From: Candidatus Bathyarchaeota archaeon
Lineage (GTDB): Archaea > Thermoproteota > Bathyarchaeia > Bathyarchaeales > Bathycorpusculaceae
Assembly: GCA_963770935.1 (NCBI GenBank)
Contig: CAVYRJ010000007.1
Coordinates: 69,105 to 133,104 of the forward strand
Direction of reading: 5' to 3'
DNA: 64,000 bases
The position numbers were made by a program, and so were the translations under genes. This document shows, piece by piece, positions 40,113-50,696 of this stretch. Below the pieces are notes generated by a model. It was not told where the DNA came from, did not search any database, and worked only from the letters and a program-made list of their open reading frames with translations. Each line of letters opens with the position of its first letter. The first letter of the stretch is position 1.

Positions 40113-40280
40113 TCTTTCCTTTTTCTTATTTTCTAAATTTTACTTCTCTCTATCTCCCTGCTTGTTTGCTTTAAATCTTAATGTGTTAAAAATCCCATGT
40201 TTTTTACTTAAATTTGTACTAAAGGCGTATAAACCCCTTCTTTCCATCTATGAGCATTTACTGCTAGAAGGGACTGAAAA

Positions 40281-41762
40281 ATAGGCTGCGGTATCTTTGG
40301 AGCAATAAATTACGATAAACAACCCGTTTTTCCCTATGTTTACTGGGGGCTACGGGCTCAAAACCATCGAGGACACCAATCGCACGGGTTCCTGACAAGC
40401 AACAACAACCAATTTTATACCTACAAAGCCTTAGATCTTGTCCCAAGACTAAAAACAAGCGCAATAAATGAATGGTTCGGGCGCCTACCCGGATCAATAG
40501 GCATCGGCAACGTACGGTACACAACCTCAGGAAAATGCGACGACGTTTCCATAATCGACGGCACCCAACCAGTCGTCGCATCTGCAGATGGAATAAAACT
40601 CGCCCTCTCATTTAATGGCAACATCGTCAACACGCTGCCACTCAAAAAAGAAATAAATCAAAACTTTTCCGATTTCCTCTACAACTGCGACTCCGATATC
40701 GTGTGCCACAAAATGCTCCTGGCCCTAAAACAGGGTCAAGACCTGCCCTCAGCCGTCCGTACCGTTATGGAAAGCCTAGATGGTGCATTTTCCGTAACTG
40801 GAGTAACTGGCAATGGTCAATTCTTCGCCTTCAAAGACCCACACGGAATAAAACCCCTGTGCGCTGGACATGATCCCGAAAGAAAAACTTTCGCTTTTTC
40901 CTCTGAAACTGTAAGCTTAGACATGAACAGTTTTGTTAGAGATTTCGAGTTGAAACCGGGTGAACTTGTGACGGTTTCAGAAAATGGCTTTAACCGCACC
41001 CAACTTATTGAGAATCCGCGTCAAGCCTTCTGCTGTTTTGAATACGCTTATTTTGCAAGGCCTGACTCACGGTTTGACGGCAAATATGTTTATGAAATGC
41101 GAGAAGACTTTGGAAGAAATCTAGTTAAGGAATTCTCTGAAATCGTCAAGGACGGTGACATCATCATGTCTGTACCTGAAACCGGCGATGACTCAGCCAT
41201 GGGAGTCCATGAAGAGTCGGGTTTACGATGGGAACGTGCATCAAGACGCCACCGCTACGTTACCGAACGGGCCTTCATTCTGCTTAACAACGAACGCTAC
41301 TCAACTATCGACAAAAAAATTAACATCTTAGGAAGCAAAGTTGCGGGCAAACGAGTTATAGTAACTGAAGACAGTGTTGTTCGAGGCGACACAACAAAGG
41401 TTATCATAGAAAAACTTCGCAAGGCAGGAGCCAAAAAAGTTTACCTCTTCGTAACTTTCCCACGCATTATCGGACCGTGCTTATATGGTATCGATATGTC
41501 AAGTTATGGGCAACTTATCGGCTCAAGACATAGTGCTGTAGAAATCGCTAAAATCATCGGTGCAGACGCAGTATGCTACCAATCAATCGAAGGACTAATA
41601 CGCGCCACGGATCAAACTGAGGACCAGCTTTGCTTAGCCTGCATAACAGGCAAGTACCCCACGCCGTGTGCCCAGAAAATGGCTGACACAATGAAAAAAC
41701 GCTTCCTCGAAGGATACGAAGAAAAAGGAAGAATCTACGAAGCCGAAGAAGTCCAGCCGTAA
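40281..41762 (+). CDS. purF: Amidophosphoribosyltransferase
   Basis: Frame is open 414 nt upstream of the track's GTG (40701) to CGIFG at 40287, including HRG, VRYTT and NGN; then CCFEYAYFARPDS, EDSVVRGDT, PCLYGID, LCLAC; start is not canonical. Confidence 0.93.
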   Translation: MGCGIFGAINYDKQPVFPYVYWGLRAQNHRGHQSHGFLTSNNNQFYTYKALDLVPRLKTSAINEWFGRLPGSIGIGNVRYTTSGKCDDVSIIDGTQPVVASADGIKLALSFNGNIVNTLPLKKEINQNFSDFLYNCDSDIVCHKMLLALKQGQDLPSAVRTVMESLDGAFSVTGVTGNGQFFAFKDPHGIKPLCAGHDPERKTFAFSSETVSLDMNSFVRDFELKPGELVTVSENGFNRTQLIENPRQAFCCFEYAYFARPDSRFDGKYVYEMREDFGRNLVKEFSEIVKDGDIIMSVPETGDDSAMGVHEESGLRWERASRRHRYVTERAFILLNNERYSTIDKKINILGSKVAGKRVIVTEDSVVRGDTTKVIIEKLRKAGAKKVYLFVTFPRIIGPCLYGIDMSSYGQLIGSRHSAVEIAKIIGADAVCYQSIEGLIRATDQTEDQLCLACITGKYPTPCAQKMADTMKKRFLEGYEEKGRIYEAEEVQP

Positions 41763-41809
41763 TTGCTATAAAGCGTTCCCTCCACTGTCTATGCTTAACG
41801 GTGTATTGG

Positions 41810-43222
41810 ATGGAAAAAATCGGTGTACTAGTTGTTTCTTATGGCGCACGAGAAGTCGCCATGGCAGATGCTCTTCTGCGAAGCCAAAACTACCAAGTGG
41901 AACTTTTCGTCGCGGACAAACAACGCAACCCATTCAATGCGCAACACGCCACAAAACACAAGGTCATCCCAAACCTTGACATCAAAGAAATTTGCAAATT
42001 CGCCCAAGAAAACCGTGAGAAAATCGACTTTGTCATGGTTGGTTCAGAGAAACCGATAATCGAGGGCATTCGCGATCTAATTGAGAAGCAAACCGGCATT
42101 CCAGTCATTTGTCCCACCAAAGAGTACGCCATCGAAGAGAGCAAGATTGCTCAGCGAATACTTTTCGAGGAGATTGCGCCTGAGGCGAATCCGCGTTTCA
42201 AGATTTTTCATCCTGCGGATTTCAAGGGCAAAGATGTCCAAAAAGCTGTTTATCAATGGCTAGACGAATTAAACAACCAAGCTGTGGTGAAGCCTGATAA
42301 GCCTGCGTTGGGAAAAGGTGTTGGCGTCTGGGGTGACCACTTCGCAAATCGGGAACAGCTTTTTGAGCACTTTATGTCCAACTTCCAGTACGGCTCAGTT
42401 ATCATAGAAGAAAAAATCGATGGCGAAGAATCCAGTTGTATGGGTTTTTGTGATGGCAAACACTTCATTACGCTGCCCGATACCCGCGACTACAAACGCG
42501 CCTTCGACGATGACAAAGGTCCAAACACAGGCGGCATGGGCTCCTACAAGGATGTGGCGGATAGGCTGCCCTTCTTAACTGTCTCTGAACGTGAACAGGA
42601 GCTTGCTTTAGCTGACAAGGTTTTCAAGGGTTGGAAAAGAAAAATTAAAGACGATTCCGCACTCAGAGGCGTCCCATTGTACCTTGCATTCATGCACACG
42701 GGCAAAGGTATCAAAATCCTTGAAATCAACAGCCGCCCCGGCGATCCCGAAATCATGAACCTTCTCCCAATCATAAAAGATGACTTCGTCGATGTCTGCC
42801 TCAGAATGGTTGATGGCAACTTGATGAGCGTTGCAATGGAGAAATCAGCCACGGTGCTGACCTACAAGGTTCCCTCAGACTACGGCGGCTACGCCCAAGC
42901 CTACCCAGACGAATTAGATAAAGCCTCTATCAACACACCAGTTGATCTGACCAAAGCAGAGGCACTTGCCAAGAAGTTCGGCGATAAAATCCGTATCTAC
43001 CCAGGTTCCATGGAATTGCGCGATGGCAAAAACTACGCGCTCAAATCTCGTGCCATCGGTATTCTAGGCATCGGCGGCAGCATCGAGGAAGCGCGGCAAA
43101 TCAGCCAAGAAGGCGCCAAAGCGGTCATCGGCGGCGCACTTTGGAACCGCACCGACGTGGCCTCAAAACAACACATAGCCAAAAGCATTACCCACATGGA
43201 CAAGTTGAGGCACAAGCCTTGA
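41810..43222 (+). CDS. purD: Phosphoribosylamine-glycine ligase
   Basis: GARE.A, VVKPD..ALGKGV, IIEEKIDGEE, DYKRAFDDDKGPNTGGMG, EINSRPGDPE. Confidence 0.95.
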   Translation: MEKIGVLVVSYGAREVAMADALLRSQNYQVELFVADKQRNPFNAQHATKHKVIPNLDIKEICKFAQENREKIDFVMVGSEKPIIEGIRDLIEKQTGIPVICPTKEYAIEESKIAQRILFEEIAPEANPRFKIFHPADFKGKDVQKAVYQWLDELNNQAVVKPDKPALGKGVGVWGDHFANREQLFEHFMSNFQYGSVIIEEKIDGEESSCMGFCDGKHFITLPDTRDYKRAFDDDKGPNTGGMGSYKDVADRLPFLTVSEREQELALADKVFKGWKRKIKDDSALRGVPLYLAFMHTGKGIKILEINSRPGDPEIMNLLPIIKDDFVDVCLRMVDGNLMSVAMEKSATVLTYKVPSDYGGYAQAYPDELDKASINTPVDLTKAEALAKKFGDKIRIYPGSMELRDGKNYALKSRAIGILGIGGSIEEARQISQEGAKAVIGGALWNRTDVASKQHIAKSITHMDKLRHKP

Positions 43223-44301
43223 CACGTATCTTCATCTCCGACTGCGAAGGACCCATATCAAAAAACGACAACGCCTTCGAGCTGGCCGAGAATTTTATCC
43301 CAAACGGAGACAAGTTCTTCACAAACATAAGCCTCTACGATGACGTACTTGCAGATGCCCTAAAAAAACCTGGTTATTCTGCGGGCAGCACATTGAAGTT
43401 GATTTTGCCCTTCTTCAAAGCCTATGGCATAACCGATAGCCAGATGGAAGATTTCTCCGCCAAAAACATAATTCTAATCGCCAACACCAAAAGCACCCTA
43501 AACCATATACGAAAAATATCCGAAGCCTTCATCATTAGCACTAGTTACGAACACTACATCAAAGCTTTGTGCAAAGCAGTCGATTTCCCATACAAAAACA
43601 CGTACTGCACCAAGGTAAGCCTTGACAAATGTCCCATAACTCCGCAAGAGAAAGAACGCTTAAGGGAGATAGCGCAAGAAATCGCGCAAATGCCCTTAAT
43701 CGATATTCCAGCAAACGCAAAAATCCTCGAGGATTTTTCAAGCCGCGACCAAGCCTTTATCCAGCGTTTGGATGAGATTTTCTGGAGCTTAATTCCCAAG
43801 ATGTTTGTTGGCAAGTTTCTTACTGATGTTGTGACTGTTGGTGGGGAACAAAAAGCTGAAGCAATCCGTGATGTCGCAAAACGTTTAGGGGTGGCGTTGG
43901 AGGATGTTATGTACGTGGGTGATAGCATAACAGACATTGAAGCGTTCAAACTCGTTCGTGATAATGGGGGATTAACTGTTTCATTTAACGGAAACAGCTA
44001 CGCTGTGAAGAATGCTGAGGTGGCTGTTCAGTCGGAAAGTAATCTTGTCACGGCTGTAATAGCTGACTTATTCTGTAAGTTAGGCAAAATACAAACAATA
44101 AAAACGCTCAGCCAATGGAGCCTTGAGGATCTCAAGGAAAACAAAGTTGAAGAGACCCTACTCAAACTGCTATCCAACCTAAAGCCGGATGACCTGCCCA
44201 AAGTTCAAATAGTCACAGCAAAAAATATGGAATCACTCATAAAAGAGAGCAGCGCGTTTAGGAAGAAGGTTCGTGGAGTAGCCATCGGGAGACTTGGATA
44301 A
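43219..44301 (+). CDS. HAD-superfamily protein (EhaR-like)
   Basis: Motif I variant [41 protein letters not shown]; TTG overlaps the purD stop codon. Confidence 0.8.
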
Positions 44302-45211
44302 AATGGTTAAAGCAGTAATCGAAGATACTTACGCAGAAGCGTTCACAGGGATTTTTTGTCGGTTAATCGTGACTGCAGACGATGAGCAAACTCTGCATAA
44401 AGCAGCCGAAGACTCCACCTCTACGCCATCCGTCGTGATAGGCAGAACTGAAGGCGGCATAGAAAAATACCTGGCACCCAACGAAACCCCCGACAAACGT
44501 GTGGGCGCTATTCTGCAGTTTTGGGGGGAAATCAACTCCAAAAAAACATTCGAGGAATCGCTGAAAAAATTCGAAACCGAGCTCTCTTACCGCATCCGTC
44601 AAGACATCCTTGTAAAACCCTTCACCGCCGTTTTCGATGCTTTGCCCAGGACCGAGGGCAAACTGGACATGATGGAGAGTGTGGGTCATTGCGGTGATGG
44701 ATATGAATGGATTGAGAAACGGTTTGGTAGAGAAGTCATCGTTGTTCCATTGATGGTTCCTGACTTTGTGATTGAGCGTTATCTTGGTTATGCGAAGGGT
44801 GTTATGGGCGGCAACTTTTGGATAATGTGCAAATCAAAAGCTGCGCTAAATGAAGCGGGCGCCAAAGCCCTAAAGGCAATCCACAGAGTACATGGAGTCG
44901 TAACCACCTTTGATATTTGCTCAGCTGGCTCAAAACCCGAAACCCATTATCCAAAAATAGGGCCAACAACAAATCATCTCTATTGTCCATCGCTTAAATC
45001 GCGCTTAGGAAAGGAATCGAAGGTTCCTGAAGGCGTCGAATACATAGCAGAGATCGTTTATAACGGCGTTTCCTTAGATGCCGTTAAAAAAGCCACAAAA
45101 ACAGCAATTAAAGCCGTTTTAGATGTAGCGGGCGTTGTAAGGGTTTCCGCTGGCAACTACGATGGCAAACTAGGCGAACACAAAATCCCATTAAAAGAGT
45201 TGTTTAAATGA
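44294..45211 (+). CDS. Formylmethanofuran:H4MPT formyltransferase-like protein (divergent Ftr paralog, EhaS-like)
   Basis: [45 protein letters not shown]; non-canonical at [16 protein letters not shown] and [12 protein letters not shown]. Confidence 0.88.
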
Positions 45212-46122
45212 CAAGATTTGATGTAATAGGATTCGGAGCACTCAACGTTGATATGCTCTTCAAAGTAGACAAGCTTGCTTCTGCAGAAGAAGAAAGCTTC
45301 ATCGAAGATTACAAGGAAGCCTGCGGAGGATCAGCAGCCAACACCATGGTTGGGCTGGCAAGACTCGGCTGCAAAGTCGGGTTCATAGGCAAAGTCGCTA
45401 ACGACCGCGAAGGCAAGATGCAACTAGACTGCTTCAAAGCCGAAGGGGTTGACACCAGCGGCATAGTTGAGGCACCCAAGGGCAAGAGCGGTGCAGTGAT
45501 GGGGTTCGTGGATAGAAAAGGTGCAAGAGCCCTGTACATTAACTCAGGCGTTAACGACTTGGTTGAGCCAAGGGAAATAAAATGGGAATATGTTTCCCAA
45601 ACCAAATTCCTCCATCTGTCATCGTTTGTAGGGGAAAAATCGTTCCGCGCCCAAAAAAAGCTCTTAAGTGCCCTGCCTGATGGCGTGAAAATCAGCTTTG
45701 ATCCCGGCTCACTGTACGCTCAGAAAGGTTTTGCAGTAATAGAGCCAATGATTAGAAATTCTTATGTGTTGATGCCAAACGCCATTGAGCTTGAGCAATT
45801 AACAGGCGAAGAGGATTACCGAAAAAGCGCTGACTACCTGATTAGCATGGGGGTTAAGGTTGTTGCGGTAAAACTTGGTGCCAAAGGTTGCTATGTGACC
45901 GATGGCCAAGAAAAACTCAAGGTTGAACCTTTCAAAGTAAAAGCAATCGATACCACAGGAGCTGGAGACGCTTTCGATGCTGGTTTTCTTTATGGCTTAA
46001 TCAGCGAAAAAAGCCTTTACGAATGCGGGCAGTTAGGCAATTTTGTTGCTTCCCGAAACGTAATGAAACTAGGTGCACGTGAAGGATTGCCGTACGCTAA
46101 GGATTTAGCATTTCTTGGTTAG
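45208..46122 (+). CDS. PfkB/ribokinase family kinase (EhaT-like)
   Basis: [41 protein letters not shown]; ATGA overlap with the Ftr-like stop. Confidence 0.92.
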
Positions 46123-46923
46123 CTTTTCGATGATGCTTTGGAAGATGAATTTCCCATCACCGTACTGAAGCATCTGCTGCTGACGTGTCCAGTCGGGTTG
46201 CTGCCACCAGTACAACGCTCGTTCGGGATGAGGCATCAAACCAAAAATGTTGCCTTCCTTATTGCAGATTCCAGCAATGTCATAGAATGACCCGTTGGGG
46301 TTAATGGGATACTTGCAGTCGGCAACTTTGCCATCTTTATCACAATATCGGAAAACCAGCATGTCCTCGTTGATTAGCTTCTTTAGTAGTTCATTCTCTT
46401 TCTCCTTGGGGAAAAGCAGTCTACCTTCGCCATGGGCAATCGGCATCCTCAGCACTTTCCCAGCTGGAATCTTGCTTGTGAAAAAGCATTTTCCCTTGTT
46501 TTCCTGCTTGAGATAAATCCATTCACACTTGAAACCCGCTGGCTCATTGGTTGTTAATGTGGCTTCTGGGTAAGCGCTCATGCCTTCAAAGCCTGGAAGC
46601 AAACCGAATTCGACTAGGATTTGGAAACCGTTGCAAATGCCCAAGATTGGTCTGCCTTCATCGATGAAAGTTTCCATTTCTTTAGCCAGGTTCGCGGAGA
46701 GATGTCTTGCAAAAATCACTCCTGAACGTACATAGTCGCCAAACGAGAAGCCGCCAGGGAAAACCAGCACCGAATAATCCAAAAGATTGCGGCGTTTGAT
46801 TAATTCATTAACATGCACTGATTCCGCTTGCACGCCCAACTCTTGGAAAGCACGCTGGGTTTCTGCATCGCAGTTGGTGCCTCCAACACGCATTACGCAG
46901 ACTTTGATTTCATCTTGATTCAT
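46105..46923 (-). CDS. purQ: FGAM synthase glutaminase subunit
   Basis: GTNCDAET, PGGFSFGDY, GICNGFQIL, IAHGEG, MPHPER. Confidence 0.96.
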   Translation of the reverse strand: MNQDEIKVCVMRVGGTNCDAETQRAFQELGVQAESVHVNELIKRRNLLDYSVLVFPGGFSFGDYVRSGVIFARHLSANLAKEMETFIDEGRPILGICNGFQILVEFGLLPGFEGMSAYPEATLTTNEPAGFKCEWIYLKQENKGKCFFTSKIPAGKVLRMPIAHGEGRLLFPKEKENELLKKLINEDMLVFRYCDKDGKVADCKYPINPNGSFYDIAGICNKEGNIFGLMPHPERALYWWQQPDWTRQQQMLQYGDGKFIFQSIIEKLTKKC

Positions 46924-49307
46924 TGTTGCTTAACCTCTGGACTTAGGGTTTTCTTCCAGCTACGCCGTAATGCTTCAAGTGAAGAGTCGACTGCAACTTT
47001 GCCGTTTAAGCCTTTGACAAGCAGTTTCTGTTCCTGAGTTACCTTGCCAATTAAAGCGCAGTTTTTGCCTTTCATTAAGTCCTCAAAAACCTCCCTGTCC
47101 GCTTCGGCAACTTCGATTAGGAATCGACTGTTGGATTCAGAGAACAACACAAAATCGTTTCGCGCTAACTCTTTGCCTGGAACTTTGCACAAATCCAATT
47201 CTAACCCGTATCCGCCTGCAAACGCCATCTCCGCCGCCGCAACCGCTAAGCCACCCTCCGAGAGGTCATGGCACGACTTAACTAGGCCTGCGTCGATCGA
47301 TTTTGTGACTGCTCTGAAGGTGCGTTTGGCTTTGGCGCCTCTCACTTTGGGAACGCTTGCACCAAGGTAGCCTTTGAGTTTGTAGTATTCGGAGCCGCCA
47401 AGTTCGTTGAATGTTTCGCCGATGATGTAGAGGAGATTGCCTGGAGCTTTGAGATCCATGGATGTGGTCGATTGAAGGTTGGGGATTACTCCGACCGCAG
47501 TTATCAGCAATGTCGGGGTCACAGGTCCCAGCGGCGACTCGTTATAAAGGCTGTCTTTGCCCGAGATAAACGGTGCCTTAAACGCCACCGAAAAGTCGTA
47601 GCAAGCTTCGCAAGCACGTACTAATGAGCCGAGGCGTTCCGTTTTCTCTGGGTTTCCCCAAGTGAAATTGTCTAAAAGAGAAATTCTTCTTCCCCCAACA
47701 GCAACATTATTGCGTATAGCTTCGTCGATTGCGGATGCAGCCATCCAGTATGCGTCAATCTTGCCGTAGTTTGGGTTCATGCCACACGAAATAGTCAAGC
47801 ACTTTTGTGAGTCATCAAGCGGTTTCAGTACGGCTGCGTCGTTTGGTCCCGCGTATTCGCCTTGTAGTGGTTTGAGGGTTGTGTTGCCCTTGACTTCGTG
47901 GTCGTAGGTTCGGATGACGCTTTCTTTGCTGGCGATGTTGGGTGCTGCGAGTAGTAGCAGGAGGGTTTCAGTTAGGTTCTGTGGTTCAGCAAACTCCGGT
48001 TCGGTGAGTTTTGGAGTTTCGATTGTGGCAACTTTGGTGCTTTCACAAGGGTTAAACATGAAATCCATGTCGATGTCAGAGACTGTCTCACCGTTGTAGC
48101 TGAGTTGCAAACGCCTTTCTGGGATTAGTTTGCCTATGGCGTTTGCTTGAACGTCTTCTTTCTCAAATACGGCCATAACTCGCTCCAAGTTCTCTGTTGG
48201 CACAGTTAGGAGCATTCGTTCTTGGGATTCAGAAAGGTAGATTTCCCATGGTGCCAAACCCTGGTGTTTCAATGGAACCTTACCTAAATCAACAGTAATG
48301 CCGCAACTGAAACGTTCAGCCGTTTCGCCAACTGCAGAAGATAATCCGCCGCCGCCAATGTCAGTTATCGCTGAGCCCAATTGCAAATCTCGAATCTCAA
48401 TCACTGCACGTTTGACTTTTTCTTCTTCAATTGGGTCGGCAATTTGAACTGCTGGACGTGAAATTTCTTCTGATTTTTCGGTGAGTTCAGCTGAAGCGAA
48501 GGTCACGCCGTGGATGCCGTCACGCCCTGTTTTTCCGCCCGCCAAAACTACGAAGTCACCGACTTTGGCGTTTTTGGTATACTTGCTTAGGGGTAAGAGT
48601 CCTATGCAGCCGCAGTACACGATGACGTTGCCCGTGTAGCTGTCATCGAAGTATATGGCGCCGTTGACGGTTGGGATGCCCATGTTGTTGCCGTACGCGC
48701 TGATGCCTGCGGTTACACCCATGTACACATATTTGGGGTGCTTCACGCCAGCTGGAAGTTTGTTGTAATCATAATCTAAGGGTCCAAAACCCAGAACGTC
48801 AGTGCAAGCGATGGGATCTGCCCACACTCCGAGGATGTCGCGGATTACGCCTCCCACGCCTGTTGCTGCGCCACCAAATGGCTCTACCGCTGAGGGATGA
48901 TTGTGTGTCTCCACTTTAGCCGCGATGCCGTAGCCAAGGTCAAATTTGACAATGCCCGCGTTGTCCTCAAAAACGCTAACACACCATGGTGCCTTAATTT
49001 GTTTGGTGGCTTTAGCAATGTATGTTTTAAAGAGACTTTGGATTTCTTTGCTGCCGATTTGGATTTTGCCCTTAAACGTTTTGTGACAGCAGTGTTCACT
49101 CCACGTTTGACTTATCGTTTGCAACTCCACATCGGTGGGATTGCGTTTTTCTTTCTTAAAATAAGCTTGAATAACCTTTAGCTCTTCTGCGCTGAATCCC
49201 AAGGCAAGCTCGTTGTTGATTTCGTTTAGTTGCTGCTCTGTGGCTTTTGCTATGGTAAACTCTAGGACTTGGCTGTTTTTGCGTTGGGTGAAAAAGTCAG
49301 CGTTCAT
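46920..49307 (-). CDS. purL: FGAM synthase subunit PurL
   Basis: WSEHCCHK, ETHNHPSAVEPFGGAATGVGG..RD, DIGGGG, SESQERM, YDHEV, DLSEGG. Confidence 0.97.
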   Translation of the reverse strand: MNADFFTQRKNSQVLEFTIAKATEQQLNEINNELALGFSAEELKVIQAYFKKEKRNPTDVELQTISQTWSEHCCHKTFKGKIQIGSKEIQSLFKTYIAKATKQIKAPWCVSVFEDNAGIVKFDLGYGIAAKVETHNHPSAVEPFGGAATGVGGVIRDILGVWADPIACTDVLGFGPLDYDYNKLPAGVKHPKYVYMGVTAGISAYGNNMGIPTVNGAIYFDDSYTGNVIVYCGCIGLLPLSKYTKNAKVGDFVVLAGGKTGRDGIHGVTFASAELTEKSEEISRPAVQIADPIEEEKVKRAVIEIRDLQLGSAITDIGGGGLSSAVGETAERFSCGITVDLGKVPLKHQGLAPWEIYLSESQERMLLTVPTENLERVMAVFEKEDVQANAIGKLIPERRLQLSYNGETVSDIDMDFMFNPCESTKVATIETPKLTEPEFAEPQNLTETLLLLLAAPNIASKESVIRTYDHEVKGNTTLKPLQGEYAGPNDAAVLKPLDDSQKCLTISCGMNPNYGKIDAYWMAASAIDEAIRNNVAVGGRRISLLDNFTWGNPEKTERLGSLVRACEACYDFSVAFKAPFISGKDSLYNESPLGPVTPTLLITAVGVIPNLQSTTSMDLKAPGNLLYIIGETFNELGGSEYYKLKGYLGASVPKVRGAKAKRTFRAVTKSIDAGLVKSCHDLSEGGLAVAAAEMAFAGGYGLELDLCKVPGKELARNDFVLFSESNSRFLIEVAEADREVFEDLMKGKNCALIGKVTQEQKLLVKGLNGKVAVDSSLEALRRSWKKTLSPEVKQQ

Positions 49308-49555
49308 TTGGATTCAACGACGCTTATGGTGTAGTTGTCTTTGGTTGGGTTTGCCAATAGGCGTTTGCTCATTTCTTCCGCTTTTGCTTTGGCTTCTTTT
49401 GGTGAGGATGCTTCAAGGTTGACGGTGTAGACTTTGCTTACATCCACTGCTTCTACCTTGTAGCCGAGTTCCACAAGTAAACGTGCGGTTGTTTCGCCTT
49501 CCGGGTTGCTATGTCCGGGTTTGAGGCTGACTTCTATTTTGGCAGCGTATTTCAT
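49304..49555 (-). CDS. purS: FGAM synthase subunit PurS
   Basis: LKPGHSNPEG, LLANP..DNY; directly upstream of purL. Confidence 0.93.
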   Translation of the reverse strand: MKYAAKIEVSLKPGHSNPEGETTARLLVELGYKVEAVDVSKVYTVNLEASSPKEAKAKAEEMSKRLLANPTKDNYTISVVESK

Positions 49556-49613
49556 AATCCTCTAAATTAGGCACTCGGGATTTAAACGCTTTCGTCAAAA
49601 AGAATGCAAAACT

Positions 49614-50696
49614 TTACGTTAAAACCATGTGTTTGTTTTTGGATTCTATTTCCACTACTCTTTCCTTGTTGGTTACTTTGCCTATTAACTCTGGTTTTAC
49701 TCCATTCTCCTCGAGTTTGATCATGGCTTTGTCAACATCTATTTTGTCCACGATTATGCCAAAGCCCCAGCCCATATTAAACGTCTTAAACATTTCCTCG
49801 TCAGTTATGGTGTAGCCGAGTTCAGCAGCGGTTTTTTGTATTAAGCCAAAGATTGGTTGAGGCTTAAAGTTGTTGAATCTAAAACCTATGCCTGACGAGT
49901 AGTTTGCTAAGTTGTTGAACTTAGTGAAGGAGTCTCCTGTTATGTGCACGGCAGCTTTTACTTTGATTTCACGCGCCAGTTTCAGGAGCGGCTTTACATA
50001 AATTTTGGTAGGCTCCAAAACTTCAAGCGCAACTTCCCTGTCTAGGCCTTCTGGAATATCGTTGGGCATGTATTTACCTCCCCACTGTTTGAAGAGGATT
50101 TTCCGCACCAGTGTGATGCCATTGCTGTGAACACCGCTGCTGGCTAAACCAATGATGGGGTCGCCAGGCTTGATGCCCTCGCCTGTGATAATGTCTTGGC
50201 GCTCCACCTTGCCCACTGAGGAGACTACCATGTCGAACCCAGCGTTTTCCGCTATGCCTTTTATGATTTCGGCTACGTCTCCTGTTTCGCCACCTGTCAC
50301 TGGGCACTCTGATTCGTGGGCGCCTTGGATGATGCCTTTTAGCCATGCGTTTACAAGTTTGGGTTCGCTGGCTTGAGCGTGAATATTGTCTGCAATCGAG
50401 AGGGGTTTAGCTCCAGATCGGATAACGTCGTTGACTGCCATAGCGACTGCATCAACCCCTATAGTATCGTATTTCTGGGCTAATTCTGCGATGAGAACCT
50501 TGGTGCCTACACCCTCAATGACCAAATCTAAAAACGTGTTTTCACCAATGGCAAAGATGTTACCATAAGGGAGATGCATAACGCCACCGTATTGGCTATG
50601 CTGGTAAGTTTCATGAAGATTTTTTAGTTCTTTTTTGGATTCTACGCGTTGTTTACGGTTCACGCCTGCATCTGTGTAAGTGAAGTTTTTGGGCAT
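49614..50696 (-). CDS. purM: AIR synthetase
   Basis: YTDAGVN, GVGTKV, GGET, SSGVHSNG, LEPTKIY, HITG, TFNMG.G. Confidence 0.95.
   Translation of the reverse strand: MPKNFTYTDAGVNRKQRVESKKELKNLHETYQHSQYGGVMHLPYGNIFAIGENTFLDLVIEGVGTKVLIAELAQKYDTIGVDAVAMAVNDVIRSGAKPLSIADNIHAQASEPKLVNAWLKGIIQGAHESECPVTGGETGDVAEIIKGIAENAGFDMVVSSVGKVERQDIITGEGIKPGDPIIGLASSGVHSNGITLVRKILFKQWGGKYMPNDIPEGLDREVALEVLEPTKIYVKPLLKLAREIKVKAAVHITGDSFTKFNNLANYSSGIGFRFNNFKPQPIFGLIQKTAAELGYTITDEEMFKTFNMGWGFGIIVDKIDVDKAMIKLEENGVKPELIGKVTNKERVVEIESKNKHMVLT

What the first reader, a model, noticed from the sequence alone, without database searches (positions are those of the whole stretch)
43219..46122. HAD + divergent Ftr + PfkB triad fused into the purine cluster: candidate new GAR formylation route
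Seen: the cluster encodes purine steps 1, 2, 4 and 5 (purF, purD, purSLQ, purM) but has no purN or purT for step 3 in this window. Directly after purD, and coupled by overlapping stop/start codons (43219-43222, 44294-44301, 45208-45211), lie a HAD protein, a formyltransferase and a PfkB kinase. The formyltransferase has [16 protein letters not shown] and [12 protein letters not shown] where canonical Ftr, as I recall it, has TGFxTSxIxCxxEAGI and RIGQCVxTxPT, so it looks like a paralog. Recalled knowledge: a similar HAD / second Ftr / ribokinase trio ends the methanogen eha operon (EhaR/S/T) with no defined function; no Eha hydrogenase genes are present here. Inference: the trio is an independent module that links C1 carriers (formyl-H4MPT or formyl-methanofuran) to purine synthesis. 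Ftr formylates a primary amine, chemically like the GAR glycinamide amine; the phosphatase and kinase could act on the ribose 5'-phosphate or on the carrier.
Basis: partly seen in the sequence, partly recalled or inferred. Interest (0 to 1): 0.9.

Follow-up and report, generated by a model that had tools for sequence, protein, structure and literature searches.

The report
Candidate missing archaeal purine formyltransferase module
Three tightly coupled genes (a phosphatase-like protein, a second copy of the methanogen-type formyltransferase Ftr, and a ribokinase-like kinase) sit where related archaea carry PurN or PurT, so they are a strong, testable candidate for the third step of purine synthesis, whose enzyme has been missing in several archaeal groups since 2011.

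Summary
In this Bathyarchaeia genome, purF-purD is followed by a HAD-IB protein, an Ftr paralog (Ftr2) and a PfkB kinase, coupled by overlaps or a 1-nt gap. purQLSM converges on them.

- **Own genome:** it has a separate canonical Ftr1 but no PurN, PurT or FolD.
- **Paralog clade:** Ftr2 belongs to a well-supported clade that also holds Hydrothermarchaeota, Archaeoglobaceae, Thermoproteota and Helarchaeota sequences. Almost all of these genomes also keep Ftr1.
- **Phyletic test:** I sampled 301 Bathyarchaeia genomes, of which 268 encode PurL and so need FGAR.
  - 139 have Ftr2 only.
  - 115 have only a PurN-type or PurT-type gene.
  - 1 has both.
  - 13 have none, and most of these are assembly gaps.
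- **Slot test:** the position directly after purD holds HAD-Ftr2-PfkB, or bona fide PurN (followed by folD), or PurT, depending on the lineage.
- **Other phyla:** of 20 Ftr2-carrying genomes checked (18 from other lineages), none has PurT and one has a weak PurN-like domain.

This is classic non-orthologous gene displacement. It argues that the module makes formyl-GAR from formyl-methanofuran or formyl-H4MPT. No biochemistry exists, the roles of HAD and PfkB are unexplained, and orthology to methanogen EhaR/S/T was not tested. I found no paper that links Ftr2 to purine synthesis.

The parts
40278..41762 (+). purF (amidophosphoribosyltransferase), first gene of the operon; the start codon is unclear
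   Evidence: TIGR01134 scores 243 bits on the 40701-41762 ORF. Reading in frame from 40278 gives KIGCGIFG with the catalytic Cys, and this 494-aa form aligns over its full length at 74-94% identity in relatives. There is no ATG, GTG or TTG before 40701.
41801..43222 (+). purD (GAR synthetase), of a divergent 'Bathy-type'
   Evidence: Pfam GARS_N, GARS_A and GARS_C all match. TIGR00877 scores 242 bits, below its cut-off of 288. It is the only PurD-like gene seen here. The same low-scoring type (235-280 bits) occurs in the trio lineages, and canonical PurD (330-500 bits) occurs elsewhere.
43219..44301 (+). HAD-IB family protein with a D-x-E-G-P motif I (AF1437 family); role unknown
   Evidence: It gives generic HAD Pfam hits only. 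Its closest solved relative is 1Y8A, the A. fulgidus hypothetical protein AF1437 (E 5e-31; Foldseek TM 0.82/0.94). After that come phosphoserine phosphatases, ThrH and MtnX. D8, E10, G11, P12, S107, T108, K212 and G234-D-S-I-x-D239 are invariant across Bathyarchaeia, Archaeoglobi and one other lineage. The AlphaFold model has pLDDT 94.
44303..45211 (+). Ftr2, a paralog of formylmethanofuran:H4MPT formyltransferase; candidate GAR formyltransferase
   Evidence: Pfam FTR and FTR_C both match. It is 33-37% identical to solved Ftr structures. The AlphaFold model has pLDDT 90 and TM 0.87-0.90 to 1FTR, 1M5S and 1M5H. It is 35% identical to the genome's own Ftr1. It sits in a separate clade with 96/91 and 96/93 support. 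The Glu that aligns with the catalytic Glu of Ftr is invariant (E253).
45208..46122 (+). PfkB-family (ribokinase-like) kinase
   Evidence: Pfam PfkB scores 184 bits. The best NCBIfam hits are ribokinase (174 bits) and ribose-1-phosphate kinases (143-150 bits), all below their cut-offs. The NxxE and GAGD motifs are present. The PfkB gene that directly follows the HAD gene in Archaeoglobi is 44-50% identical to it.
46105..50696 (-). purQ, purL, purS and purM (steps 4 and 5), converging on the trio
   Evidence: NCBIfam equivalogs score above cut-off for purQ (321 bits), purL (680), purS (69) and purM (262). This arrangement is conserved in relatives.

Best explanation
**Proposal.** The purD-HAD-Ftr2-PfkB unit supplies step 3 of de novo purine synthesis, the formylation of glycinamide ribonucleotide (GAR) to FGAR. 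It does so in archaea that have methanofuran and H4MPT but no tetrahydrofolate C1 enzymes.

**Catalyst.** Ftr2 is the proposed catalyst. It keeps the Ftr fold and the catalytic Glu. It would transfer a carrier-bound formyl group to the primary amine of the glycinamide moiety. The donor would be N5-formyl-H4MPT, with GAR taking the place of methanofuran, or less likely formyl-methanofuran.

**Shown here.** The gene order, the paralogy, the absence of PurN, PurT and FolD, the mutually exclusive distribution, and the equivalent position after purD.

**Inferred.** The substrate and the donor.

**Unresolved.** The roles of HAD and PfkB. My best guess, at about one chance in four, is that formylation happens on the dephosphorylated riboside. 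HAD would remove the 5'-phosphate, and PfkB would restore it using ATP.
For: 1. **Own genome.** It has Ftr1 plus Ftr2. It has no Formyl_trans_N domain and no PurT. tblastn finds no FolD, 5-formyl-THF cycloligase, PurN-like or PurT homologue.
2. **Synteny.** purF-purD-HAD-Ftr2-PfkB is conserved in about 80 species loci and in families f13, f15, f22, f23, f24 and f31.
3. **Phyletic test on 301 Bathyarchaeia genomes.** 268 encode PurL. Of these, 139 have Ftr2 only, 115 have a PF00551 or PurT-like gene only, 1 has both and 13 have none. None of the 130 genomes in this organism's order has a PF00551 or PurT hit. Of the 13 with none, 4 carry a trio that is truncated or frameshifted, and 6 lack purD or have it only in fragments, which points to assembly gaps.
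4. **Ftr2 follows the purine pathway, not the C1 pathway.** Outside this order, 19 genomes have Ftr1 but no PurL, and all lack Ftr2. Only one Ftr2 carrier lacks a detectable PurL.
5. **Same slot.** The gene directly after purD varies by lineage.
   - HAD-Ftr2-PfkB in the trio lineages.
   - Bona fide PurN (TIGR00639 156-218 bits), followed by folD.
   - Bona fide PurT (NF006766 470 bits).
   - A divergent PurT-like gene.
   - A divergent PurN-like gene.
6. **Swaps within single families (f13, f23).** Relatives differ in carrying the trio or a PurT-like or PurN-like gene.
7. **Other phyla.** I checked 20 further Ftr2 carriers: 18 from Hydrothermarchaeota, Thermoproteota, Helarchaeota and Aenigmatarchaeota-labelled MAGs, plus 2 distant Bathyarchaeia. 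17 have PurD, none has PurT, and 1 has a weak PF00551 hit.
8. **Literature.** GAR formyltransferase is missing in Archaeoglobi, Methanobacteriales and M. kandleri (PMC3261824). The same groups and ANME-1 carry an uncharacterised Ftr2, and the paper calls the GAR enzyme 'as yet unidentified' without linking the two (PMC9012536).
9. **Chemistry (established knowledge).** Ftr interconverts two N-formyl amines. GAR offers an aminomethyl group attached to a five-membered O-heterocycle, like the head group of methanofuran.
Against: - No enzymatic or genetic data exist for any Ftr2.
- Outside Bathyarchaeia, Ftr2 is not next to pur genes, and in most cases it is not next to HAD or PfkB either.
- ANME-2a and ANME-2b are reported to have both Ftr2 and PurN (PMC9012536). 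One Bathyarchaeia genome here (G150) also has both.
- 63 of the 115 'PurN/PurT' genomes carry only a divergent PurN-like protein scoring 77-108 bits, below the PurN cut-off. In families f20 and f17 that gene sits beside a peptidase gene, not pur genes. The claim that one of the three options is always present therefore depends on an unproven assignment.
- Related genomes are not independent, so the Fisher p-values overstate the evidence.
- A simple formyl transfer does not obviously need a phosphatase and a kinase.
- Thermoproteota carry Ftr2 without the HAD gene.
- Methanothermobacter is said to need formate for purine synthesis (PMC10579436). This could mean a formate-dependent step 3 instead.
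Confidence: 0.6

Rival explanations
1. **Nucleoside-level, ATP-driven variant of the main idea.** HAD dephosphorylates GAR to glycinamide riboside. Ftr2 formylates the riboside. PfkB then rephosphorylates it to FGAR. The cost is one ATP, the same as for PurT.
For: - The three genes are translationally coupled and travel together across Bathyarchaeia families.
- The HAD catalytic motifs are invariant across phyla, so it is an active phosphoryl-transfer enzyme.
- HAD and PfkB form a conserved adjacent pair in Archaeoglobi, and Ftr2 lies just upstream of HAD in one locus.
- HAD is absent from 10 of 11 PurN or PurT Bathyarchaeia lineages tested.
- PfkB kinases that phosphorylate ribosides of purine intermediates are known (own knowledge).
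Against: - Carrier-to-amine formyl transfer should be close to isoenergetic and is pulled forward by PurL, so an ATP-driven detour has no obvious purpose.
- Thermoproteota have Ftr2 without HAD.
- Family f10 keeps HAD alongside a PurN-like gene and has no Ftr2.
- Ftr2 gains conserved Arg residues (R51, R102), which would suit a phosphorylated substrate.
Confidence: 0.25
2. **Ftr2 is only an anabolic isoenzyme of Ftr.** It would still act on formyl-methanofuran and H4MPT. HAD and PfkB would serve the pentose-phosphate or PRPP supply for PurF, for example ribose-1-P to ribose-1,5-bisP to ribose-5-P. The true GAR formyltransferase would still be unknown.
For: - Ftr2 keeps the whole Ftr fold and the catalytic Glu, and it passes the NF002554 subfamily cut-off.
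- PfkB scores 143-150 bits on ribose-1-phosphate kinase models.
- HAD-PfkB pairs occur without an adjacent Ftr2 in Archaeoglobi.
- Kaster et al. regard EhaS and EhaT as part of the Eha complex (PMC3087415).
Against: - It does not explain why the module sits in the PurN/PurT slot.
- It does not explain why the module is almost never found together with PurN-type or PurT-type genes.
- It does not explain why genomes with Ftr1 but no PurL lack Ftr2.
- It needs a further unknown enzyme in exactly the same set of genomes.
Confidence: 0.15
3. **The module releases or activates formate.** It would take the formyl group from carrier-bound formyl and release it as formate or formyl phosphate. An ATP-grasp enzyme, for example the divergent PurD or PurP, would then use it. 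This would be analogous to PurU feeding PurT.
For: - PurD here is of a divergent type that tends to travel with the module.
- Formate is reported to be needed for purine synthesis in Methanothermobacter (PMC10579436).
- In bacteria, FhcD works with a hydrolase to release formate (PMC6926001).
Against: - No hydrolase partner of the FhcA or FwdA type is in the cluster.
- The divergent PurD also occurs with PurN-like genes and without the trio.
- No PurT-like acceptor enzyme is present.
Confidence: 0.07
4. **The trio acts in cofactor biosynthesis or repair.** The cofactor would be methanofuran or H4MPT. The link to pur genes would then reflect shared precursors such as PRPP or a PurB-type step.
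For: - H4MPT synthesis uses PRPP and PurB (PMC3261824), and it includes phosphorylated ribosyl intermediates.
- HAD and PfkB chemistry would fit such steps (inference).
Against: - Many Bathyarchaeia have Ftr1, and so use H4MPT and methanofuran, but lack the trio. These include all 19 genomes with Ftr1 and no PurL, and the PurN and PurT lineages.
- The slot equivalence with PurN and PurT is left unexplained.
Confidence: 0.05

Closest known systems
Formylmethanofuran:tetrahydromethanopterin N-formyltransferase (Ftr, EC 2.3.1.101; PDB 1FTR/2FHJ, 1M5H, 1M5S) and bacterial FhcD (6S6Y)
   Same: It has the same two-lobe fold (TM 0.87-0.90) and is 33-37% identical. The Glu that aligns with the catalytic Glu is conserved. 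It passes the NF002554 subfamily cut-off.
   Different: It belongs to a separate paralog clade that coexists with canonical Ftr1 in the same genomes. It scores below the fhcD equivalog cut-off. Several conserved positions differ between the clades: G50 and R51 where Ftr1 has C/A and P/A, R102 for G, C133 for F, and G223-P224 for K-A. There is also an insertion of about 9 residues. It is encoded in a purine operon, not a C1 operon.
EhaR / EhaS / EhaT, the last genes of the Methanothermobacter eha operon
   Same: EhaS was annotated as a second Ftr and EhaT as a ribokinase. Both are co-transcribed with eha and have no defined function (PMC3087415). A 2022 tree groups the Methanothermobacter and M. 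kandleri paralogs with Archaeoglobales Ftr2 (PMC9012536). An Archaeoglobaceae Ftr2 falls in the window gene's clade.
   Different: The genes around the trio here are pur genes, with no hydrogenase genes next to it. Direct orthology to EhaS, and the claim that EhaR is a HAD protein, were not tested, because I could not retrieve a Methanobacteriales locus.
PurN (10-formyl-THF GAR transformylase) and PurT (formate/ATP GAR transformylase)
   Same: In sister lineages these genes occupy the same position directly after purD, and they almost never occur together with Ftr2. The proposed reaction product, FGAR, is the same.
   Different: There is no sequence or fold relationship. The proposed formyl donor is methanofuran- or H4MPT-bound formyl, not 10-formyl-THF or formate plus ATP. 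Ftr2 also comes with two extra genes.
AF1437 of Archaeoglobus fulgidus (PDB 1Y8A), a structural-genomics 'hypothetical protein'
   Same: It is the closest solved relative of the HAD protein (E 5e-31; TM 0.82/0.94). It shares the unusual D-x-E-G-P motif I.
   Different: AF1437 has no assigned function. In Archaeoglobus proper its gene is not next to Ftr2 or PfkB. It is about 30% identical to the window protein.

Membership tests
Ftr (EC 2.3.1.101) | FTR N-lobe plus FTR_C lobe fold | tested here: met
   Pfam FTR scores 148 bits and FTR_C 181 bits. Foldseek gives TM 0.87-0.90 to 1FTR, 1M5S and 1M5H.
Ftr (EC 2.3.1.101) | Conserved buried catalytic Glu (Glu245 in M. kandleri numbering, recalled from the 2FHJ paper; Glu252 in FhcD, PMC6926001) | tested here: met
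   E253 in 'AEIVYNG' aligns with 'YEIVING' of 1M5H and 1M5S. It is invariant in the Ftr2 clade. The residue-number equivalence is inferred from the alignment.
Ftr (EC 2.3.1.101) | Orthology with characterised Ftr (falls in the canonical clade, or is the genome's sole Ftr) | tested here: not met
   It falls in a separate clade with 96/91 and 96/93 support. Canonical Ftr1 is also present in this genome and in 17 of 20 other Ftr2 carriers. It scores 232 bits on TIGR03119, below the 293 cut-off.
Ftr (EC 2.3.1.101) | Formyl transfer between methanofuran and H4MPT | not testable with these tools
   This needs an enzyme assay. I could not map residues onto the two coenzyme pockets, because no coordinates or residue lists were available.
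PurN / PurT GAR transformylases | Formyl_trans_N fold (PurN) or ATP-grasp PurT fold | tested here: not met
   No trio protein has either fold. The resemblance is in function and position only.
EhaR/S/T module of methanogens | Location at the distal end of an eha hydrogenase operon | tested here: not met
   The neighbours here are purF, purD and purQLSM.
EhaR/S/T module of methanogens | Orthology of the three proteins to Methanothermobacter EhaR, EhaS and EhaT | not tested
   No Methanobacteriales sequence could be retrieved. There is only indirect literature support (PMC3087415, PMC9012536).
HAD superfamily, subfamily IB (phosphoserine-phosphatase-like) | Motifs I-IV (nucleophile Asp, Ser/Thr, Lys, acidic pair) and a Rossmann-like core with a helical C1 cap | tested here: met
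   D8, S107/T108, K212 and D235/D239 are invariant. The residue at +2 from the nucleophile is Glu, not Asp. The nearest folds are 1Y8A, then SerB, ThrH and MtnX.
PfkB ribokinase family | PfkB fold with the NxxE and GAGD motifs | tested here: met
   Pfam PfkB scores 184 bits. NAIE and GAGD are in the sequence.
PfkB ribokinase family | Membership of the ribokinase (RbsK) equivalog | tested here: not met
   TIGR02152 scores 174 bits, below the 300 cut-off. NF008353 scores 126 bits, below the 341 cut-off.

The most novel reading that the evidence does not exclude
**Claim.** HAD-Ftr2-PfkB would be a third, non-homologous way to make formyl-GAR, and it would work at the nucleoside level.

**Proposed steps.**
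1. GAR is dephosphorylated.
2. The riboside is formylated from the methanofuran/H4MPT C1 pool.
3. The product is rephosphorylated with ATP.

**Consequence.** The 'subunits' EhaR/S/T of methanogen energy-converting hydrogenase A would then be purine enzymes. They would draw on the formyl-methanofuran that Eha helps to make, which would link Eha's anaplerotic role to nucleotide synthesis.
Probability: 0.22. Interest if true: 0.92.

Novelty: new variant of a known kind. Interest (0 to 1): 0.85.

Why it matters
**The gap.** De novo purine synthesis is textbook metabolism. Even so, the enzyme for step 3 has been unaccounted for in Archaeoglobi, Methanobacteriales, Methanopyrus and ANME-1 since at least 2011.

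**What the candidate would do if confirmed.**
- Close that gap.
- Show that formyl groups bound to methanofuran or H4MPT enter biosynthesis directly.
- Correct the annotation of thousands of 'Ftr' genes that are now counted as Wood-Ljungdahl or methanogenesis markers.
- Reassign two or three supposed hydrogenase subunits.

**Why it can be tested now.** The genomic evidence (mutual exclusion and the shared slot after purD) points to three specific proteins and two candidate formyl donors.

Tried and rejected
- **Retrieving methanogen EhaR/S/T for a direct orthology test.**
  - An 11-sequence alignment was too diverse for the search for related loci.
  - A 4-sequence alignment returned Hydrothermarchaeota and Bathyarchaeia only.
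  - Cluster look-ups gave no useful names.
  - A search with the Archaeoglobus HAD returned hits that, where named, were all Archaeoglobi.
  - The test was therefore not done.
- **'Ftr2 is just a lineage-specific canonical Ftr'.** Rejected, because 17 of 20 carriers also have Ftr1, and the two copies fall in different clades.
- **'The anticorrelation only reflects H4MPT versus folate use'.** Weakened, because folate-independent PurT lineages lack Ftr2, and so do genomes with Ftr1 but no PurL.
- **Mapping Ftr2-specific residues onto the methanofuran and H4MPT pockets.** Not possible, because no coordinates or residue lists were held. Only clade-contrast positions are listed.
- **Step 9 (AICAR formylation) in this genome.** A PurH motif recalled from memory gave no hit. 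PurP could not be searched. This remains unresolved.
- **Gene neighbourhoods of Ftr2, HAD and purD in Hydrothermarchaeota.** These were uninformative.
- **White 1997 (purine labelling).** The paper is not held.
- **Terminator and promoter scans.** Hits were at chance level, and the scans are not suited to archaea.

Full report
**1. What is there**

The window comes from a Bathyarchaeia genome. The close homologues that carry an organism name are nearly all Bathyarchaeia or Bathyarchaeota MAGs. On the plus strand lie purF, purD, a 360-aa HAD protein, a 302-aa Ftr homologue and a 304-aa PfkB kinase. purQ, purL, purS and purM converge on them from the minus strand.

I read the junctions in the DNA:
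- purD and HAD share TTGA at 43219-43222.
- HAD ends with TAA at 44301. The Ftr gene starts at ATG 44303, or at TTG 44294.
- Ftr and PfkB share ATGA at 45208-45211.

**2. The Ftr gene is a paralog**

The assembly is 1.98 Mb and 91% complete. It holds two Ftr genes.
- The gene on contig 9 carries the canonical motifs and is only 35% identical to the window gene.
- In a tree of 56 full-length cluster representatives, the window protein sits in an 11-member clade (support 96/91). This clade is separate from the 38-member canonical clade, which has support 100/99 and contains the genome's own Ftr1.
- A second tree used named sequences. There the Ftr2 clade (96/93) contains eight Bathyarchaeia families, Hydrothermarchaeota, an Archaeoglobaceae sequence, Thermoproteota, Helarchaeota and Aenigmatarchaeota-labelled MAGs. 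The second Ftr copies of the same genomes fall in the canonical clade (100/100).
- Of 20 other Ftr2 carriers, 17 also have Ftr1.
- The fold is unchanged: the AlphaFold model has pLDDT 90 and TM 0.87-0.90 to 1FTR, 1M5S and 1M5H. The Glu that aligns with the catalytic Glu is invariant.
- Positions that differ between the clades include two new arginines, R51 and R102.

**3. The gap in this genome**

- The genome has no Formyl_trans_N domain and no PurT.
- I took FolD, 5-formyl-THF cycloligase, PurN, PurN-like and PurT proteins from related Bathyarchaeia and searched the genome with tblastn. None gave a hit beyond weak PurT-query matches to the carbamoyl-phosphate synthase gene.
- The organism therefore seems to lack folate C1 enzymes, yet it encodes steps 1, 2, 4 and 5.

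**4. Synteny**

- purF-purD-HAD-Ftr2-PfkB has the same order in essentially all of about 80 species loci found with the protein.
- The order also holds in more distant Bathyarchaeia.
- The purD-HAD-Ftr2-PfkB core also holds in families f13, f15, f22, f23, f24 and f31; in f31 the purD side of the locus is not seen.

**5. Phyletic test conditioned on need**

I sampled 301 Bathyarchaeia genomes that are at least 80% complete. The same set was used in all four searches.

- An Ftr2-clade profile separates the two paralogs cleanly. Ftr2 scores at least 320 bits and Ftr1 scores 230-275 bits.
- PurL, whose substrate is FGAR, is clearly present in 268 genomes.

Among these 268:

| Category | Genomes |
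|---|---|
| Ftr2 only | 139 |
| PF00551 or PurT-like gene only | 115 |
| Both | 1 |
| None | 13 |

- None of the 130 genomes in this organism's order has a PF00551 or PurT hit.
- Of the 13 with none, 4 carry the trio cut by a contig end or frameshifted. A further 6 lack purD or have it only in fragments, which points to assembly gaps.
- Ftr2 follows the purine pathway, not the C1 pathway. Outside this order, 19 genomes have Ftr1 but no PurL, and all lack Ftr2. Only one Ftr2 carrier lacks a detectable PurL, and its trio is flanked by purF, purD and purM.
- **Caveat on independence.** Genomes are phylogenetically related, so the Fisher p-values are not probabilities. The pattern does include swaps within families f13 and f23.
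- **Caveat on the PurN-type class.** The 115 genomes break down as follows.
  - 42 have a strong PurN.
  - 10 have PurT or a PurT-like gene.
  - 63 have only a divergent PurN-like protein (77-108 bits on the PurN model, below its cut-off). In f10 that gene directly follows purD. In f20 and f17 it sits beside a Peptidase_M55 gene, so its role there is unproven.

**6. The slot**

The gene directly downstream of purD differs by lineage:

| Lineage | Gene(s) directly after purD |
|---|---|
| Trio lineages | HAD-Ftr2-PfkB |
| f26, f30 | Bona fide PurN (156-218 bits), followed by folD |
| f19 | Bona fide PurT (470 bits) |
| f14 | Divergent PurT-like gene |
| f10 | Divergent PurN-like gene |

This is the strongest single argument. 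Three unrelated solutions occupy one conserved position in an otherwise conserved pathway cluster.

**7. Beyond Bathyarchaeia**

I checked 20 further Ftr2 carriers. Eighteen come from Hydrothermarchaeota, Thermoproteota, Helarchaeota and Aenigmatarchaeota-labelled MAGs, and two are distant Bathyarchaeia.
- 17 have PurD.
- None has PurT.
- One, the Helarchaeota genome, has a weak PF00551 hit.
- In the 18 genomes outside Bathyarchaeia, Ftr2 is not adjacent to pur genes, and with one exception (locus L093) it is not adjacent to HAD or PfkB.

**8. HAD and PfkB**

*HAD protein*
- It belongs to the family of AF1437 (PDB 1Y8A), an uncharacterised A. fulgidus protein.
- It is a subfamily-IB HAD. Motifs I to IV are invariant across phyla, and motif I reads D-x-E-G-P.

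*Distribution of the HAD gene*
- Present in all nine Hydrothermarchaeota Ftr2 carriers.
- Absent from the six Thermoproteota carriers.
- Absent from 10 of 11 PurN or PurT Bathyarchaeia lineages tested. The exception is f10.

*Archaeoglobi*
- The HAD gene is directly followed by a PfkB gene that is 44-50% identical to the window kinase. This was seen in 6 of 22 species loci and in three further metagenomic contexts.
- In one locus, Ftr2 lies just upstream of HAD.

The three genes are therefore linked in a second phylum, but their biochemical roles are not explained.

**9. Literature**

- Brown et al. 2011 (PMC3261824) could not find purN or purT in Archaeoglobi, Methanobacteriales or M. kandleri.
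- Chadwick et al. [quoted passage not shown] Elsewhere in the same paper they note the lack of PurN and PurT in ANME-1, Archaeoglobales and Methanobacteriales, and call the enzyme 'as yet unidentified'. They do not connect the two observations.
- Kaster et al. 2011 (PMC3087415) treat EhaS (Ftr-like) and EhaT (ribokinase-like) as Eha subunits.
- Full-text searches for any paper linking Ftr2 to GAR formylation found nothing.

**10. Mechanism**

- **Shown:** the anatomy, the paralogy, the gap in the genome, the mutual exclusion and the slot equivalence.
- **Inferred:** Ftr2 transfers a carrier-bound formyl group to the glycinamide amine.
  - Ftr normally interconverts two N-formyl amines.
  - GAR resembles the aminomethyl-furan head of methanofuran.
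  - N5-formyl-H4MPT is therefore the more natural donor.
  - The transfer should be close to isoenergetic and is pulled forward by PurL.
- **Rivals:** these are listed separately with odds. The main weaknesses of the best explanation are the lack of any assay, the unexplained phosphatase and kinase, the co-occurrence of Ftr2 and PurN in ANME-2a and ANME-2b, and the lack of pur linkage outside Bathyarchaeia.

**11. Earlier notes of this scan**

- Several earlier AI notes on other Bathyarchaeia windows reached the same reading. They are not independent evidence.
- One later check reported that PurN and PurT are rare in Bathyarchaeia both with the gene (0 of 267) and without it (18 of 209).
- My counts agree for carriers but not for non-carriers. 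118 of 156 non-carriers have a PF00551 or PurT-like gene. 54 of those are strong PurN or PurT-type: 44 PurN and 10 of the 11 PurT or PurT-like, with the eleventh (G080) already counted under strong PurN.
- The likely reasons for the difference are strict equivalog cut-offs in the earlier check and its lack of conditioning on PurL.

**12. Not done**

- Orthology to EhaR/S/T was not tested.
- The enzyme for step 9 in this genome was not identified.
- The formyl donor was not assigned at residue level.

Noticed in passing
window 40260-40703: purF has no ATG, GTG or TTG before 40701. The frame is nevertheless open from 40278 and encodes the glutaminase domain with the catalytic Cys (KIGCGIFG). Relatives align over the full 494 aa. 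This suggests a non-canonical start codon or a sequencing error.
   Followed up: partly
window 41801-43222; loci L239, L240, L253, L254, L256: There are two PurD types. A divergent 'Bathy-type' scores 235-280 bits on TIGR00877, below the cut-off, and is 53-60% identical to the window PurD. It occurs in the trio lineages, in f10, f17 and f20 (genus g73), and in two Hydrothermarchaeota genomes. Canonical PurD (330-500 bits) occurs elsewhere. Within family f13 the trio arrives together with the divergent PurD.
   Followed up: partly
L207 8002-8817, L208 8053-8898, L225 4819-5766: Bathyarchaeia families f20 and f17 carry a divergent PurN-like protein of 271-315 aa (94-100 bits on the PurN model). 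In L207 and L225 its gene is paired divergently with a Peptidase_M55 (D-aminopeptidase) gene and is not near pur genes. It is unknown whether it is a GAR transformylase.
   Followed up: partly
L218 (genome G031, family f13): This genome has purF-purD-HAD-Ftr2-PfkB-purM, but no PurL was detected anywhere in a 98%-complete assembly.
   Followed up: no
L013 3968-14947: The purF-purD-HAD-Ftr2-PfkB cluster appears twice as a head-to-head inverted copy with frameshifts. This is probably a long-read assembly artefact.
   Followed up: no
L291, L295, L296, L297 (Archaeoglobi-type contigs): These contigs share a conserved context of DUF2150, then HAD-PfkB, then (in three of the four) Nre, then AdoMet synthetase. 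The HAD-PfkB pair travels without Ftr2 here.
   Followed up: partly
L239 6897-10046, L241 7831-10937 (Hydrothermarchaeota): purD sits between a coiled-coil protein of about 290 aa and an aspartate/ornithine carbamoyltransferase gene. This holds in genomes with the divergent PurD type and in genomes with the canonical type.
   Followed up: no
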